A DNA stretch of 5,563 nt from a virus (taxonomy: Duplodnaviria; Heunggongvirae; Uroviricota; Caudoviricetes), in IMG/VR virus record IMGVR_UViG_2541047438_000019; one strand, 5' to 3'. How positions within the stretch are numbered: the first letter of the stretch is position 1; every line of letters starts with the position of its first letter. Positions 932-5,202 of the stretch are shown here, in pieces. Under the pieces are notes generated by a model, which ran no database searches, was not told the origin of the DNA, and was given only the letters and a program-made list of their open reading frames with translations. A program made the position numbers and the translations under genes.

Positions 932-1210
932 TTAGGGAAACTGGCGTCTTGCGTGGATCACGTTTACTACTTCAACGCTTGATGTTGTTACGCGGTATAG
1001 AATTATATAGTTAGGGTGGGCTACAATCTCACGCAAGCCAGGTACTCTGTCGCTTGGTGGGTATAAATACGGATGTTCGGATAACGGCAGCACACAACCC
1101 CTTAATCGCTGCCATAAGCGTTCAGCCGCATCTATGTCGAAACGAGCAATATAACTAGTTATATCATCTAGGTCGGTATCTGCGCTTTCAAGCCATAACA
1201 CGGGTAACAT
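932..1210 (-). CDS. parE2: ParE/RelE-family type II toxin (ParE2-like), 92 aa
   Basis: Translation MLPVLWLESADTDLDDITSYIARFDIDAAERLWQRLRGCVLPLSEHPYLYPPSDRVPGLREIVAHPNYIILYRVTTSSVEVVNVIHARRQFP has the ParE pattern (DLDDI..YIA, EHPY, PGLRE..V..Y.I.YRV, V.V..V.HARR). ATG at 1210 lies 1 nt after the stop of the upstream small gene. The longer track ORF (to 1306) would overlap that gene; ParE proteins are about 90-100 aa. Confidence 0.85.
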   Translation of the reverse strand: MLPVLWLESADTDLDDITSYIARFDIDAAERLWQRLRGCVLPLSEHPYLYPPSDRVPGLREIVAHPNYIILYRVTTSSVEVVNVIHARRQFP

Positions 1211-1211
1211 T

Positions 1212-1403
1212 TTACTGCTTGCTCCGTTCCTTGCGCATCTTAGCAAAGCGTTCTGCCATTCTGCGCTCAACTTCGTCATGGGGAATTGCTGGGCGCGGAT
1301 CTGCAAGGCTCGTTGCTACTTTCGCACGCAGCCATTCGTTGTAACTGTTTTCTTGTTCAATGGTTTCAAATTCAGAAACCATTGGTGAAAGGGCTCTATT
1401 CAT
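1212..1403 (-). CDS. paaA2: small antitoxin partnered with ParE (PaaA2-like), 63 aa
   Basis: ATG at 1403 preceded by GGAGGA (complement of 1409-1414). Translation MNRALSPMVSEFETIEQENSYNEWLRAKVATSLADPRPAIPHDEVERRMAERFAKMRKERSKQ matches my recollection of the short PaaA2 antitoxin of E. coli O157:H7. It sits immediately upstream of the ParE gene in the same operon. The track N-terminal extension (to 1457) would overlap the regulator gene. Confidence 0.8.
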   Translation of the reverse strand: MNRALSPMVSEFETIEQENSYNEWLRAKVATSLADPRPAIPHDEVERRMAERFAKMRKERSKQ

Positions 1404-1423
1404 GTTTCCTCCGGTTTTATAAC

Positions 1424-1795
1424 TCAGGCGCGGCGGCATTTTTGCGCCGCAATCCATCTCGCTATGAGATCTTCCATTGATTCTTTTTTCTGCTTTAACT
1501 CGCTGATTATCTGGCGTTGCTCATCCTCAGGGAAGGCTGAAAAAATCTGCAATAATTCCAGTTGATTAGACGTTAACCCTGCATGTGGTGGAGAACCCCC
1601 CGGTTGTTCTGCGTATTCCGCATCCAGATACCCTTCCGGCATCCCGTATGTTTGCTCTATTCTTCTGGCAGCCTTTTCTCCAAACGAGGCTCTCCCACTC
1701 ATTAGTTGAGATAGGTAGCTCTTCTCTTTGGGTGGCAGAGTTTTATCTTTAAACCACTCCTTGAGACGTAAACGGCGAATTTCTTTTTTTTGCAT
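1424..1795 (-). CDS. paaR2: CI-like phage repressor / regulator of the toxin-antitoxin operon (PaaR2-like), 123 aa, N-terminal helix-turn-helix, no LexA-type peptidase domain
   Basis: Helix-turn-helix-like N-terminus (KSYLSQLMSGRASFGEKAARRIEQTYGMPEGYLD) resembles phage CI repressor DNA-binding domains. Sits at the cI position, divergent from a cro-like gene across an operator-bearing spacer. Start taken at ATG 1795 (MQKKEIRRL); the track start at GTG 1858 would add a hydrophobic 21-aa extension lying over the operator region. Confidence 0.8.
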   Translation of the reverse strand: MQKKEIRRLRLKEWFKDKTLPPKEKSYLSQLMSGRASFGEKAARRIEQTYGMPEGYLDAEYAEQPGGSPPHAGLTSNQLELLQIFSAFPEDEQRQIISELKQKKESMEDLIARWIAAQKCRRA

Positions 1796-2630: not shown

Positions 2631-3140
2631 ATGAGTAATGACAAAAAATTGACACTGAGCGTTTACGAAAACAGTCCGCACATCTGGCGTGGCGGTTTAT
2701 CTGATGTGGAGCTGGCAGAGTGGTTGATACATAAAGCTAATGCGCTGCTCTGGCGTTTGTCAGCCAGAGAACAGCGCAAGGAAACCAGAATAAAGCTGGC
2801 TGATGCAGAAGCGTGTGCCGGGCTTATTGAGGATTATACAAATCTTGGTATTTCTTCAGCAGAGAGTGATCCCATTCAGCCTCTGAGCAGGGAGTCAATC
2901 CAGCACGCTGGTTGTATGGCACATCTTGTAACTGCTCGTCAACATGAGGTGGGTATTGGATCACTTCCGGCGGGATATTCGCTGATTCCAGAGCTGGTTG
3001 AAGCAAGAAAATCAGTTCAGAAAAAGAGAGATGACGCACTTCAATTATTGAGAGAGCACTATGGCGCGATACCAGAATGCGAACAGCGTCGATACCCTGA
3101 AGGTTATGAATGGATGCAGTCTCTTTTTGAAGTTCGCTAA
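2631..3140 (+). CDS. hypothetical protein, 169 aa, no recognisable family
   Basis: ATG at 2631 (MSNDKKLTLSVYEN...) 13 nt after the ydaT stop, weak SD. Same strand as the surrounding early operon and protein-like composition (about 6 percent Gly). The track start at GTG 2580 would overlap ydaT by 38 nt. The strand is not fully resolved: antisense ORF 2824-3279 has a perfect SD (see findings). Confidence 0.5.
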   Translation: MSNDKKLTLSVYENSPHIWRGGLSDVELAEWLIHKANALLWRLSAREQRKETRIKLADAEACAGLIEDYTNLGISSAESDPIQPLSRESIQHAGCMAHLVTARQHEVGIGSLPAGYSLIPELVEARKSVQKKRDDALQLLREHYGAIPECEQRRYPEGYEWMQSLFEVR

Positions 3141-3357
3141 TCAATATGTCGAGACGAAGGTATGTTTCGGCGCGCAGCCAGGCTCTGTAATCCGGGAGCA
3201 TTTCGGGGCTGTTACACCAGCGGTTTGTTGCTGCAACATTTAATACATGAGCCTGATAAAGGCTTTTCAAAAAATACATGTCGAACCTCCTCTGGTTCTG
3301 TCGATTGGGAACCACAGATTATATCCGGAGGAAGGTTCGGCACCAGATGAGGTAGCC

Positions 3358-4449
3358 ATGCGTGATTACGCAAAAGTTTCTCCGCGATTCTGGCTGGGAG
3401 AAACGGGGAGAGAACTTAGAAAGGCGGGTGCAGAAGCGCAAGTTGTTGCTTTTTACCTGATGACATCCCCTCACGCAAATATGCTGGGTTTGTATTACCT
3501 GCCAGTTTTATACCTTGCTCATGAAACCGGGCTTGGTCTGGAAGGGGCTTCAAAGGGGCTTAAAAGGGCTGTTGAAGCTGGTTTTTGTAGCTATGACCAT
3601 GATGCAGAGATGGTCTGGGTCCATGAAATGGCAGCCTGGCAGGTTGGGGAAACGTTGAAGCCTGGCGATAACCGTTGTGCAGGTGTCAGGAATGAGTATG
3701 CATCATTACCTGAAAACGCTTTTCTGTCAGTGTTTTACGACAGATATAAAACGGATTTCCATCTGGATGTGAGGCGGAATAATAGCCGAAATTCGGTAAG
3801 GGGCTTCGAAGGGGCTTTTAAGGGGCTTCGAAGCCAAGAACAGGAACAGGAGCAGGAGAAAGAACAGGAACAGGACAAAAACACTATGGTTCATGGCAAA
3901 AAAAACACCACGAACCAGGCAGGGGATGTTCAGACCGTCAATCCTGGTCAGCCAGCAGGCACGACACCGGAAGCCGATTCGGGCGCTGTGCAGCAGGTGA
4001 TGACCGCAGGGTCGGAGCAATCACACCAACTGCAGCAGCCTGAAGCCGATTCCGCCATTCAGCGGGAAGCCGATCGGGTAGTCCCGGAAAGCACCGGGCA
4101 GTCTGTGGGACGAGTGGATTATCCGGATGTGTTCGAACAGGTCTGGCGGGAATACCCGTTGCGTGCTGGGGCAAACCCGAAGAAATCCGCTTTCAGTGCC
4201 TGGAAGGCCAGATTGCGCGAGGGGGTGCCACCAGAGACCATGCTGGATGGTGTGAGGCGTTACGCGAGATACCTGGCGGCGACCGGGAAAGCGGGAACGG
4301 AATTTGTTCAGCGAGCGACGACGTTTTTTGGGCCGGACCGGAATTTTGAAAACCCCTGGTTGCTCCCGGTAAGCGGCACGAACAACCAGCGTTGTGTGAA
4401 TCATATTTCTGAACCGGATACCGAAATTCCGCCGGGATTCAGGGGGTGA
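3358..4449 (+). CDS. phage replication initiation / replisome-organiser protein (O-like role), 363 aa, with low-complexity linker
   Basis: Sits immediately upstream of and coupled to a DnaC-like loader gene. C-terminal segment FEQVWREYPLRAGANPKKSAFSAWKARLREG...FFGPDRNFENPW resembles the conserved motif of phage replisome-organiser proteins as I recall it. Iteron-like DNA repeats lie inside the gene. Start chosen at ATG 3358 (GAGGT 5 nt upstream); an in-frame ATG at 3247 lacks an SD and is the alternative. Confidence 0.7.
   Translation: MRDYAKVSPRFWLGETGRELRKAGAEAQVVAFYLMTSPHANMLGLYYLPVLYLAHETGLGLEGASKGLKRAVEAGFCSYDHDAEMVWVHEMAAWQVGETLKPGDNRCAGVRNEYASLPENAFLSVFYDRYKTDFHLDVRRNNSRNSVRGFEGAFKGLRSQEQEQEQEKEQEQDKNTMVHGKKNTTNQAGDVQTVNPGQPAGTTPEADSGAVQQVMTAGSEQSHQLQQPEADSAIQREADRVVPESTGQSVGRVDYPDVFEQVWREYPLRAGANPKKSAFSAWKARLREGVPPETMLDGVRRYARYLAATGKAGTEFVQRATTFFGPDRNFENPWLLPVSGTNNQRCVNHISEPDTEIPPGFRG
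3542..3570. repeat. iteron-like direct repeats, cluster 1: AAGGGGCTT / AAAGGGGCTT / AAAAGGGCT at 10-11-bp spacing
   Basis: Read directly: GAAGGGGCTTCAAAGGGGCTTAAAAGGGCT. The repeat period is not a multiple of 3, so codon repetition does not explain it. Confidence 0.5.
3798..3830. repeat. iteron-like direct repeats, cluster 2: three tandem 11-bp units AAGGGGCTT(C/T)(G/T); candidate replication-origin core inside the initiator gene
   Basis: AAGGGGCTTCG (3798-3808), AAGGGGCTTTT (3809-3819), AAGGGGCTTCG (3820-3830), one helical turn apart, followed by a hexanucleotide repeat and an A-rich stretch. Confidence 0.55.
3838..3876. repeat. tandem hexanucleotide repeat (GAACAG/GAGCAG) encoding an EQEQEQEKEQEQ linker
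   Basis: GAACAGGAACAGGAGCAGGAGAAAGAACAGGAACAGGAC read directly, in frame with the replication gene. Confidence 0.8.
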
Positions 4450-4455
4450 TGTGGC

Positions 4456-5202
4456 ATGAAAAACATTGCGGCAGCCGGGGTTCTTGAACGTATTCGCAGA
4501 CTTGCACCACAGGCGTCGGTTCCACCGTACCGGACGGTGGAGGAGTGGCGGGAATGGCAACTTGCTGAAGGACGAAAACGCAGCGAGGAGATTAACCGCC
4601 AGAATCACCAGTTGCGGGTGGAAAAAATCCTGAATCGTTCGGGCATCCAGCCTCTGCACAGCAAATGCTCGTTTGCGAATTATCAGGTGCAGAACGACGG
4701 GCAAAAATACGCGCTGAGCCAGGCCAAATCCATAGCTGACGAACTGATGACCGGGTGCACGAATTTTGTGTTCAGCGGTAAAACCGGCACCGGGAAAAAT
4801 CACCTTGCAGCGGCGATGGGTAACCGGCTGATGGCGAAGGGGCGCAGCGTGATTATCGTCACCGTGTCTGATGTCATGAGCGTGTTGCATGACAGCTACG
4901 ACAACGGCAAATCCGGGGAAAAATTTTTACAGGAGCTTTGCAGTGTTGATTTGCTGGTCCTGGATGAAATAGGCGTTCAGCGGGAGACGAAAAACGAGCA
5001 GGTGGTATTACACCAGATAATTGATCGCCGGACAGCATCACTGTGCAGTGTCGGGATGTTAACAAACCTGAATCATGCCGCAATGAGTACACTTCTTGGT
5101 GAGAGGATTATGGACCGCATGACCATGAACGGTGGTCGATGGGTGACGTTTAACTGGGATAGCTGGCGTCCAAATGTCAGCAATATGAGGGTTGTGAAGT
5201 AA
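4456..5202 (+). CDS. DnaC-like replicative helicase loader (IstB/DnaC AAA+ ATPase), 248 aa
   Basis: Walker A FSGKTGTGKNHLAAA and Walker B LLVLDEIG. Overall resemblance to E. coli DnaC and the Rac prophage DnaC paralogue. AGGGGG at 4441-4446, 9 nt before ATG 4456, which lies 6 nt after the stop of the initiator gene. Confidence 0.9.
   Translation: MKNIAAAGVLERIRRLAPQASVPPYRTVEEWREWQLAEGRKRSEEINRQNHQLRVEKILNRSGIQPLHSKCSFANYQVQNDGQKYALSQAKSIADELMTGCTNFVFSGKTGTGKNHLAAAMGNRLMAKGRSVIIVTVSDVMSVLHDSYDNGKSGEKFLQELCSVDLLVLDEIGVQRETKNEQVVLHQIIDRRTASLCSVGMLTNLNHAAMSTLLGERIMDRMTMNGGRWVTFNWDSWRPNVSNMRVVK

What the first reader, a model, noticed from the sequence alone, without database searches (positions are those of the whole stretch)
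3542..3915. Candidate replication origin embedded in the initiator gene
Two clusters of AAGGGGCTT repeats (3542-3570 and 3798-3830) at 10-11-bp periodicity lie inside the replication gene. The period is not a multiple of 3, so amino-acid repetition cannot explain the DNA repeats. Cluster 2 is followed by a hexanucleotide repeat and an A-rich stretch (3877-3915). This mirrors lambda, where ori iterons and the AT-rich region sit in the linker-coding part of gene O, although this initiator does not look like lambda O.
Basis: partly seen in the sequence, partly recalled or inferred. Interest (0 to 1): 0.6.

Follow-up and report, generated by a model that had tools for sequence, protein, structure and literature searches.

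The report
Replication-origin repeats inside a phage initiator gene
Inside the replication-initiator gene of an E. coli O157:H7 prophage lie two clusters of a 9-base repeat that evolution has kept at the DNA level across very different bacteria, so they are most likely the initiator's own binding sites (the phage replication origin), the same kind of arrangement as in phage lambda but in an uncharacterised protein family.

Summary
AAGGGGCTT occurs exactly five times, plus one degenerate copy, always 11 bp apart. The copies form two clusters (3542-3572 and 3798-3828) inside the initiator gene, whose true start is probably 3358 and whose end is 4449. A (CARGAR)n hexamer repeat and an A-rich tract follow cluster 2.

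The repeats are under DNA-level selection:
- In 79 species-level homologues (host GC 36-69%) the same 9-mer sits at the same two gene positions with 11-bp phasing.
- Its synonymous sites are frozen: GGG 93% against 22% for Gly elsewhere in the domain, CTT 90% against 13% for Leu.
- Cluster 2 is inverted in most lineages, which changes the peptide (EGASKGL to APSKPL) but keeps the DNA motif.
- The hexamer repeat persists even where it is read in another frame.

The repeats track only the N-terminal domain. That domain is a predicted winged helix with no Pfam match, and cluster 1 encodes its predicted recognition helix. C-terminal domains and downstream helicase or loader genes vary. A phage with an unrelated N-domain and the same C-module has the same layout built from different repeats (GTCACG).

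Best reading: an iteron-type origin embedded in the initiator gene, a new member of the lambda O / SPP1 gp38 kind. Binding, unwinding site and origin activity are untested.

The parts
3358..4449 (+). Replication initiator gene (363 aa). It has an N-terminal winged-helix domain, an EQ linker and a C-terminal recruitment domain.
   Evidence: PHROG 1701/3729. GenBank homologues are annotated 'replication protein O' or 'primosomal protein I'. RefSeq CDS 4718-5809 of L008 corresponds to window 3358-4449 and is annotated 'hypothetical protein'. No Pfam hit even at E<=10.
3358..3789 (+). Coding region of the folded N-terminal domain (aa 1-143), a predicted winged helix-turn-helix.
3542..3572 (+). Iteron cluster 1: AAGGGGCTT at 3542 and 3553, plus degenerate AAAGGGCTG at 3564, with 11-bp spacing. 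It encodes aa 62-71 (EGASKGLKRA), inside the predicted recognition helix (aa 60-73).
   Evidence: Present at +184/+195 in 62 of 79 homologous loci, with frozen synonymous sites. Helix assignment.
3712..3792 (.). Moderately AT-rich patch just upstream of cluster 2. It is the least stable part of the gene and one candidate unwinding region.
   Evidence: Nearest-neighbour stability is lowest at about 3720-3760 within the gene. An AT excess of +0.11 to +0.16 at the same relative position appears in both low-GC and high-GC homologue groups. It may simply reflect amino-acid composition.
3798..3828 (+). Iteron cluster 2: AAGGGGCTT at 3798, 3809 and 3820, with 11-bp spacing. It encodes a disordered segment (aa 147-157).
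   Evidence: Homologues carry 2-3 copies here, mostly on the opposite strand (AAGCCCCTT), sometimes in mixed orientation. pLDDT below 50 for aa 144-168.
3831..3875 (+). Invariant AAGC(CAA) junction followed by the (CARGAR)n hexamer repeat, which here encodes S-Q-(EQ)n.
   Evidence: TRF period 6. The AGC Ser codon is present in 71/71 loci and the following CAA in 58/71. The hexamer repeat follows cluster 2 in 84/85 loci. It is read as (QE)n in 77 and in the +1 frame as (GA)n/(RA)n in 7.
3877..3917 (.). A-rich tract (51% A) containing an imperfect hairpin at 3887-3917 around an A8 run. It is the first part of the C-terminal mosaic module.
   Evidence: The mosaic junction lies at about 3878: downstream DNA is 92% identical to phages with other N-domains. 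The same tract is present in phage Tritos after different repeats.
3880..4449 (+). C-terminal domain of the initiator, presumed to contact the loader or helicase.
   Evidence: PHROG 3729/270/26426, 'replication initiation protein'. Weak match of the last 24 aa to the DnaT C-terminus (E 0.002, below cut-off).
4456..5202 (+). DnaC-like helicase loader gene.
   Evidence: Pfam IstB_IS21 3.9e-19. NCBIfam PRK12377 1.6e-153 and DnaC 3.3e-89. PHROG 50.

Best explanation
The two clusters of 5'-AAGGGGCTT-3' are iterons: binding sites for the winged-helix N-terminal domain of the protein whose gene contains them. Together with the adjacent hexamer-repeat and A-rich DNA they form the prophage's origin of replication.

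Proposed mechanism:
1. Transcription from the early-right promoter produces the initiator.
2. Its N-domain occupies the 9-mers. The 11-bp phasing puts successive protomers on nearly the same face of the helix.
3. The two clusters, 256 bp apart, are probably brought together into one nucleoprotein complex.
4. Nearby less stable DNA opens, either the AT-richer patch upstream of cluster 2 or the purine-rich hexamer/A-rich tract downstream.
5. The C-terminal domain recruits the phage DnaC-like loader carrying host DnaB.

Shown here: the repeats, their phasing, DNA-level selection on them, their exclusive linkage to the N-domain, the winged-helix fold, and the modular exchange of C-domains and helicase or loader partners.

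Inferred: who binds, where the DNA melts, loader recruitment, and origin activity.
For: 1. Five exact 9-mers at 11-bp spacing in two clusters.
2. In 79 species-level homologous loci the exact 9-mer is 123-fold denser in the +150..+520 zone of the gene than in 378 kb of flanks. Spacing is 11 bp in 143 of 164 neighbouring pairs. 56 of 79 loci have both clusters.
3. Synonymous sites are frozen. Among 60 genes with the EGAxKGL motif, GAA is used 100%, GGG 93%, GCT 85%, AAG 100% and CTT 90% inside the motif. The same amino acids elsewhere in the N-domain use these codons 49%, 22%, 19%, 65% and 13% of the time. The same holds in hosts with GC of at least 58%.
4. Cluster 2 is inverted in most lineages, direct in enterobacterial ones and mixed in some. 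The peptide changes (EGASKGL, APSKPL) while the DNA motif and phasing stay.
5. The repeats co-occur with the N-domain only. Downstream partners are DnaB-type helicases (19), DnaC/IstB loaders (15), lambda P (2) and others among 59 loci. C-domains are mosaic.
6. The N-domain is a winged helix.
7. Phage Tritos shares the C-module but has an unrelated N-domain. It has the same layout with other repeats: GTCACG x4 and x5 at 10-bp spacing, 260 bp apart, then a repeat-encoded linker.
8. The (CARGAR)n repeat after cluster 2 is kept in 84/85 loci in two different reading frames.
9. There are experimentally established precedents for origins inside initiator genes: lambda and Stx phages (PMC7466680) and SPP1 oriL in gene 38 (PMC6316719).
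Against: No experiment exists for this family, and no paper in the searchable library mentions the motif in this context.

No strongly AT-rich unwinding element is present. E and Q codons in the linker are not AT-biased relative to the rest of the gene, and in high-GC hosts the linker is mostly GAGCAG.

There is no DnaA box.

In O157 Sakai, Sp4 is one of three prophages with a DnaC-type loader and probably the one in this window. It was amplified after mitomycin C only through a neighbouring prophage. That is attributable to its non-cleavable repressor, but it gives no positive evidence for origin activity.

Codon statistics treat related sequences as independent, so the p-values are overstated.
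Confidence: 0.75

Rival explanations
1. The repeats are protein-binding sites with a non-origin role. Candidates are autoregulation or a roadblock to transcription through the initiator and loader genes, copy-control 'handcuffing' sites, or a centromere-like element. The true origin would then lie elsewhere.
For: Short repeats at 11-bp phasing in two clusters also occur in centromere and operator arrays (R1 parC, from my own knowledge). Acinetobacter homologues have an extra cluster just upstream of the start codon (-38/-27/-16), where it could act as an operator. No clear unwinding element was found.
Against: No partition genes are in the window or in annotated homologous regions. The repeats are tied to an initiator N-domain across many helicase and loader partners. 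Every characterised analogue of this layout is an origin. Regulation and origin function are not mutually exclusive.
Confidence: 0.12
2. The conserved block (cluster 2 plus the AAGC junction plus the hexamer repeat) is mainly a recombination joint. It would be a shared microhomology that lets phages swap N- and C-terminal initiator modules, rather than a replication element.
For: The mosaic breakpoint sits immediately after the hexamer repeat at about 3878. The same DNA repeat is joined to different C-domains and is even read in another frame. Partners vary widely.
Against: It does not explain cluster 1, 256 bp upstream inside the folded domain, which has the same 9-mer and frozen synonymous sites. 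It does not explain the strict 11-bp phasing or the strand inversions that keep the motif. Phage Tritos has different repeats at the same place.
Confidence: 0.06
3. The two clusters pair with each other in the mRNA (or in single-stranded DNA) to form a long-range helix that controls translation or stability of the initiator message.
For: In about half of the homologues cluster 1 is forward and cluster 2 is its reverse complement: ++|-- in 20 loci and ++|--- in 18. That would allow an interrupted helix of about 20 bp.
Against: In the window and all enterobacterial relatives both clusters are on the same strand and cannot pair. Mixed-orientation arrays exist. The 2-nt spacers do not co-vary between clusters. 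The motif is nearly its own reverse complement (AAG-SSS-CTT), which fits duplex recognition better.
Confidence: 0.03
4. The repeats arise from chance or from protein-level repetition (an internal EGASKGL peptide repeat) and have no DNA function.
For: In the window both clusters encode EGA(S/F)KGL-like peptides.
Against: The 11-bp period puts copies in different frames. Synonymous sites are frozen in hosts from 36% to 69% GC. Cluster 2 is inverted in most lineages and then encodes APSKPL. About 0.04 exact copies are expected by chance and five are observed.
Confidence: 0.01

Closest known systems
Phage lambda ori-lambda within gene O (and Stx-phage derivatives)
   Same: The origin is embedded in the initiator's own reading frame. 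There are multiple initiator-binding repeats followed by a strand-asymmetric A-rich tract. The initiator is modular: its N-domain binds the repeats and its C-domain recruits the helicase loader. The gene lies in the early-right operon after the cII-like gene (PMC7466680).
   Different: There is no sequence similarity to O and no PF04492 hit. The iterons are 9 bp at 11-bp spacing, not 19-bp inverted repeats. They are split into two clusters 256 bp apart, the first in the recognition-helix codons rather than in the linker. The loader is DnaC-like, not P. The AT-rich element is weak.
Bacillus phage SPP1 oriL within gene 38 (replisome organiser gp38)
   Same: Direct repeats bound by the gene's own product lie inside the gene, with an adjacent unwinding element. 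A separate loader and helicase are recruited (PMC6316719).
   Different: There is no detectable homology: no PF09681 hit and no PDB sequence hit. The repeat sequence and geometry differ. The hosts are Gram-negative.
Escherichia phage Tritos-type initiators (weak PF09681-like N-domain, same C-terminal module)
   Same: The architecture is identical. Two clusters of short repeats at helical phasing lie about 260 bp apart in the N-domain coding region. The second abuts a repeat-encoded low-complexity linker and the shared A-rich/hairpin tract. The C-module DNA is 92% identical.
   Different: The N-domain is unrelated in sequence. The repeats are GTCACG at 10-bp spacing, and the linker is (ACAGATAAAGAT)3. 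As far as I could find, this type is also uncharacterised experimentally.
Iteron plasmid origins (RepA, pi, TrfA; RepA_N)
   Different: Plasmid iterons are typically 17-22 bp and lie outside the rep gene (from my own knowledge; review PMC4980987 was listed but not read). There is no Rep_3 or RepA_N sequence match.
SaPI / PICI origins (two iteron sets flanking an AT-rich region)
   Same: A bipartite set of short iterons flanks a central region. This rests on my own knowledge and was not checked here.
   Different: SaPI origins are intergenic and follow the rep gene, and the Rep there is a helicase. Here the central region encodes a conserved protein domain.

Membership tests
Initiator-gene-embedded iteron origin (lambda ori / SPP1 oriL kind) | Several copies of a short repeat inside the initiator's reading frame | tested here: met
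   Five exact copies plus one degenerate copy in the gene at 3358-4449.
Initiator-gene-embedded iteron origin (lambda ori / SPP1 oriL kind) | Repeats maintained at the DNA level, beyond what the protein requires | tested here: met
   Synonymous sites are frozen. The motif is kept through strand inversion with a changed peptide. It is conserved in hosts with GC 36-69%.
Initiator-gene-embedded iteron origin (lambda ori / SPP1 oriL kind) | Repeat specificity travels with the DNA-binding domain of the initiator, not with the rest of the replication module | tested here: met
   The same 9-mer accompanies the N-domain next to DnaB-, DnaC-, P-type and other partners. A different N-domain on the same C-module carries different repeats.
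Initiator-gene-embedded iteron origin (lambda ori / SPP1 oriL kind) | Adjacent AT-rich DNA unwinding element | tested here: inconclusive
   There is an A-rich tract at 3877-3915 (51% A) and a modest AT patch at 3712-3792. Linker codons are not AT-biased. In the stability scan all 12 least stable 40-bp windows of the 5.5-kb window lie outside the gene, and the gene's own minimum (about 3720-3760) is only about 1.7 SD less stable than the window mean.
Initiator-gene-embedded iteron origin (lambda ori / SPP1 oriL kind) | Initiator binds the repeats, and the fragment supports initiator-dependent replication | not testable with these tools
   This needs EMSA or footprinting and a plasmid replication assay. 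No published data were found.
Lambda O protein family (Pfam PF04492 Phage_rep_O) | Sequence match to the family profile | tested here: not met
   No Pfam family matches the 400-aa ORF at E<=0.01, nor the N-domain alone at E<=10; the C-terminal half gives only a chance-level PF22029 match (E 0.048, 14 bits against a 27-bit cut-off).
Phage replisome organiser N-terminal domain (PF09681) / DnaD-like | Sequence match to the family profile | tested here: not met
   No hit. hhalign against the Tritos N-domain gives probability 0.2%. The PHROG 1701 label 'DnaD-like helicase loader' is an annotation, not a test.
[quoted passage not shown] | H-strand-H-H-strand-wing-strand topology with structural matches to known wHTH domains | tested here: met
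Plasmid/partition centromere arrays (parC-type 11-bp repeats) | Adjacent partition ATPase and adaptor genes | tested here: not met
   The neighbours are repressor, cro-like, YdaT-like, initiator, DnaC-like and DUF1627 genes.

The most novel reading that the evidence does not exclude
The module may be self-referential and built to tolerate frame changes.

First, cluster 1 of the origin is written in the very codons of the recognition helix that reads it (aa 62-71). A change in the site therefore also changes its reader. That would explain why one 9-mer has stayed fixed from Enterobacteria to Burkholderiales and Acinetobacter.

Second, the (CARGAR)n repeat after cluster 2 may be a functional DNA element, for example a periodic single-strand binding lattice or unwinding element for the initiator. 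It has no stop codon in any forward frame, so 11-bp iteron gains or losses and module swaps can occur inside a coding region without destroying the protein.
Probability: 0.25. Interest if true: 0.7.

Novelty: new member of a known kind. Interest (0 to 1): 0.5.

Why it matters
This initiator family has no Pfam model. RefSeq annotates the gene as 'hypothetical protein' in hundreds of E. coli O157 genomes. The family includes the 'Eru4' replication type of Stx1 phages, whose proteins the literature calls 'of unknown function' (PMC8951638).

Pinpointing its likely origin and iteron (cgAAGGGGCTT, 11-bp phasing) gives a directly testable replicon for Stx-phage replication studies. It also gives a search pattern for annotating origins in prophages of many Proteobacteria. 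Finally, it is a clean natural case of overlapping protein and DNA codes: an origin written into the codons of its own reader, with strand flips and frame changes that separate the two constraints.

Tried and rejected
- **Pfam and NCBIfam.** Pfam on the full protein and on the two halves gave nothing up to E=10. NCBIfam gave only a sub-threshold match to the DnaT tail.
- **PDB sequence search** with a 38-sequence profile gave no hit.
- **DnaA box scan** found none.
- **Promoter and terminator scan** of 3100-4500 was at background level. It found only a terminator-like hairpin on the minus strand at 3917-3887.
- **AT-bias test of the EQ linker.** I asked whether it is AT-biased at synonymous sites, as a DUE signature. 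It is not different from the rest of the gene. GC3 dips around both clusters and the linker in high-GC hosts, but this is largely explained by the motif itself and by E/Q codon usage.
- **G-quadruplex reading.** Rejected: there are only 2-3 G-runs per cluster, and many homologues carry the C-rich strand.
- **Long-range RNA pairing.** Rejected because the window's clusters are co-oriented and the spacers do not co-vary.
- **Literature.** Searches for the motif with 'iteron', 'origin' and related terms found nothing relevant. The Eru papers describe no origin.
- **Homology with the Tritos N-domain.** hhalign found no detectable homology.
Full report
**Context**

The window is the early-right region of a lambdoid prophage. 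It is 100% identical to many E. coli O157:H7 chromosomes. In order it contains:
- a short repressor without a peptidase domain (1424-1795, minus strand);
- a YdaS/Cro-like gene (1893-2195);
- a YdaT-like gene (2192-2617);
- an ORF of unknown function (2631-3140);
- a 400-aa ORF (3247-4449);
- a DnaC-like loader (4456-5202).

Homologues, PHROG matches and a GAGG box place the real start of the 400-aa ORF at ATG 3358, giving 363 aa. RefSeq starts it there too and calls it 'hypothetical protein'. GenBank phage records call homologues 'replication protein O', 'primosomal protein I' or 'DNA-binding protein'. Pfam has no model for it.

**The observation**

Exact AAGGGGCTT occurs at 3542, 3553, 3798, 3809 and 3820, and a degenerate copy (AAAGGGCTG) at 3564. 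Every neighbouring pair is 11 bp apart, and the clusters start 256 bp apart. About 0.04 exact copies would be expected by chance.

GAACAG x6.3 follows at 3838-3875. Next comes a tract that is 51% A (3877-3915). The top strand of 3838-3915 is 74% purine.

With an 11-bp period the copies are read in different frames, so a peptide repeat cannot explain them.

**Selection acts on the DNA**

The gene is a mosaic. Its C-terminal half, from about 3878, is 92% identical to phages whose N-terminal halves are unrelated. Its N-terminal half is 64-77% identical to Stx phages of Shigella and E. coli and to Klebsiella, Acinetobacter and Ralstonia phages.

In seven annotated phage relatives the same 9-mer occurs in two clusters at the same gene positions.

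A scan of one genome per species returned 79 loci from Gamma- and Betaproteobacteria and assorted MAGs. Their GC ranges from 36 to 69% and their N-domain identity from 44 to 79%. Across these loci:
- The exact 9-mer is 123 times denser in the +150..+520 zone of the gene than in 378 kb of flanking DNA.
- Spacing is 11 bp in 143 of 164 neighbouring pairs.
- 56 of 79 loci have both clusters.

Sixty genes carry the peptide EGAxKGL. Codon use inside the motif, compared with the same amino acids elsewhere in the same N-domains, is:

| Codon | In motif | Elsewhere in N-domain |
|---|---|---|
| GAA | 100% | 49% |
| GGG | 93% | 22% |
| GCT | 85% | 19% |
| AAG | 100% | 65% |
| CTT | 90% | 13% |

The contrast holds in hosts with at least 58% GC. 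The intervening Ser codon varies freely. The sequences are related, so the p-values are inflated, but the within-gene contrast is unambiguous.

Cluster 2 gives an independent proof. In most lineages it lies on the other strand, as AAGCCCCTT x2-3, and encodes APSKPL. In the window and other enterobacterial members it is direct and encodes EGASKGL. Some loci mix orientations within one array. The 11-bp phasing is kept throughout.

The consensus of 335 clustered copies is t-s-G-A-A-G-G-G-G-C-T-T-c-g-a, with GGGGC at 94-99%. The motif is nearly its own reverse complement (AAG-SSS-CTT), which may be why inversion is tolerated.

**The block after cluster 2**

Cluster 2 is followed in all 71 loci with a recognisable EQ-type linker by AGC, and in 58 of the 71 by CAA. 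A (CARGAR)n hexamer repeat follows in 84 of 85 loci. In 77 of these it is read as (QE)n. In 7 the same DNA is read one frame over as (GA)n or (RA)n.

So the hexamer repeat is also conserved as DNA, independent of frame. Its E and Q codons are not more AT-rich than elsewhere in the gene, so I cannot call it an unwinding element on composition alone.

**What the repeats belong to**

An AlphaFold2 model of aa 1-175, built on a 38-sequence alignment, has mean pLDDT 81 and is above 89 for most of aa 11-140. It shows a canonical winged helix: H25-36, strand 45-47, H50-57, H60-73, strands 77-80 and 85-88. Two further helices follow, and aa 144-175 are disordered.

By topology, H60-73 is the recognition helix. 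Cluster 1 (aa 62-71) encodes exactly that helix. Cluster 2 encodes the disordered segment before the linker.

Downstream genes in 59 homologous loci are DnaB-type helicases (19), DnaC/IstB-type loaders (15), DUF6475 (5), lambda P (2), an SF2 helicase and others. The only constant companion of the repeats is therefore the N-domain.

Phage Tritos makes the complementary point. It has the same C-module, an N-domain with no detectable similarity, and the same architecture built from a different repeat. GTCACG occurs x4 at 1154-1192 and x5 at 1414-1462 with 10-bp spacing, 260 bp apart. A (ACAGATAAAGAT)3 linker follows, and then the shared A-rich/hairpin tract.

**Mechanism**

The best-supported reading is an iteron origin embedded in the initiator gene.

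The N-domain binds the 9-mers. The 11-bp phasing aligns protomers along one face of the helix. The two clusters probably join in one complex. Nearby DNA opens. The C-domain brings in the DnaC-like loader with host DnaB.

This is the logic established for lambda O and ori-lambda (PMC7466680) and for SPP1 gp38 and oriL (PMC6316719). Everything from binding onward is inference.

The unwinding site is unresolved. There are two candidates:
- A modest AT-rich patch at 3712-3792, which is the least stable part of the gene and is AT-enriched at the same position in both GC classes of homologues.
- The purine-rich hexamer and A-rich tract at 3838-3915.

No DnaA box is present.

**Rivals**

- **A regulatory, handcuffing or centromere role.** This is possible, and an extra cluster upstream of the start codon in Acinetobacter phages hints at autoregulation. 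But no partition genes are nearby, and such roles usually coexist with origin function.
- **A recombination joint.** This fits the mosaic breakpoint next to the hexamer repeat. It does not explain cluster 1 or the phasing.
- **Long-range RNA pairing.** This is excluded for the window because the clusters are co-oriented, and the spacers do not co-vary.
- **Peptide repetition or chance.** Refuted.

**Known or new**

Origins inside initiator genes are textbook. This family is not described:
- There is no Pfam model.
- RefSeq says 'hypothetical protein'.
- The Stx-phage literature classes its Shigella 75/02 relative as 'Eru4' with proteins of unknown function and mentions no origin (PMC8951638).
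- No paper in the searchable library links the motif to replication.

[quoted passage not shown] Sp4 was amplified after mitomycin C only via its neighbour Sp5, consistent with its non-cleavable repressor (PMC2669165). So there is no functional evidence either way.

I file this as a new member of a known kind. It has unusual features: a 9-bp quasi-palindromic iteron at 11-bp spacing, a bipartite layout, cluster 1 written in the recognition-helix codons, strand flips, and a frame-independent hexamer repeat.

**Verdict**

| Question | Result |
|---|---|
| Observation | Confirmed |
| Confidence that the repeats are a DNA-level functional element | About 0.97 |
| Confidence that they are initiator-binding iterons of the origin | About 0.75 |
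| Interest | 0.5 |

Noticed in passing
window 2631-3140 (+) and 2824-3279 (-): Two long ORFs overlap on opposite strands, and each matches a family. The + ORF matches PHROG 8304 over its full length (E 4e-120). The - ORF matches NCBIfam 'phage_ECs1072' (E 2e-30) and is the one RefSeq annotates. At most one is likely to be real. The + ORF fits the operon direction.
   Followed up: partly
window 3141-3357: A gap of about 217 bp lies between the upstream ORF and the probable initiator start at 3358. The mechanical ORF extends to ATG 3247, but homologues do not align there. The stretch 3236-3275 is among the least stable 40-mers of the window.
   Followed up: no
window 3967-3980, 4039-4052, 4063-4076: Three copies of CCGGAAGCCGATTC-like sequence lie in the C-terminal half at spacings of 72 and 24 bp, both multiples of 3. 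They encode PEADS/READ peptides. The same repeats occur in phage Tritos. They are probably a peptide repeat in a second linker, but a DNA-level role was not tested.
   Followed up: no
window 3887-3917: An imperfect hairpin, TGGTTCATGG...CCACGAACCA, surrounds an A8 run. It scores as terminator-like on the minus strand and is present with changes in Tritos and PhiR5_2. It recalls the palindrome to the right of lambda's AT-rich region (from my own knowledge).
   Followed up: partly
L168 (Escherichia phage Tritos) 1154-1192 and 1414-1496: An initiator with an unrelated N-domain has its own putative iterons in the same bipartite layout: GTCACG at 10-bp spacing, x4 and x5, 260 bp apart, then (ACAGATAAAGAT)3. 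This suggests a general design for this class of enterobacterial phage initiators.
   Followed up: partly
L004, L015, L018, L026, L030, L031, L049 (Acinetobacter), positions -38 to -16 relative to the start codon; L073 -913 to -647: Extra clusters of the same 9-mer lie just upstream of the initiator start codon in Acinetobacter phages and prophages. In one MAG (L073) they lie further upstream. They could be an operator for autoregulation or an extension of the origin.
   Followed up: no
L041, L052, L055, L063, L072, L073, L081 (linker region): In these lineages the (CAGGAG)n DNA after cluster 2 is read in the +1 frame and gives (GA)n/(RA)n linkers instead of (QE)n. The repeat has no stop codon in any forward frame.
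   Followed up: yes
window 932-1457 (-) and 1424-1795 (-): A RelE/RelB-type toxin-antitoxin pair sits immediately beside a 123-aa repressor that lacks a peptidase domain. This matches the published note that Sp4-type repressors cannot be SOS-cleaved (PMC2669165).
   Followed up: no
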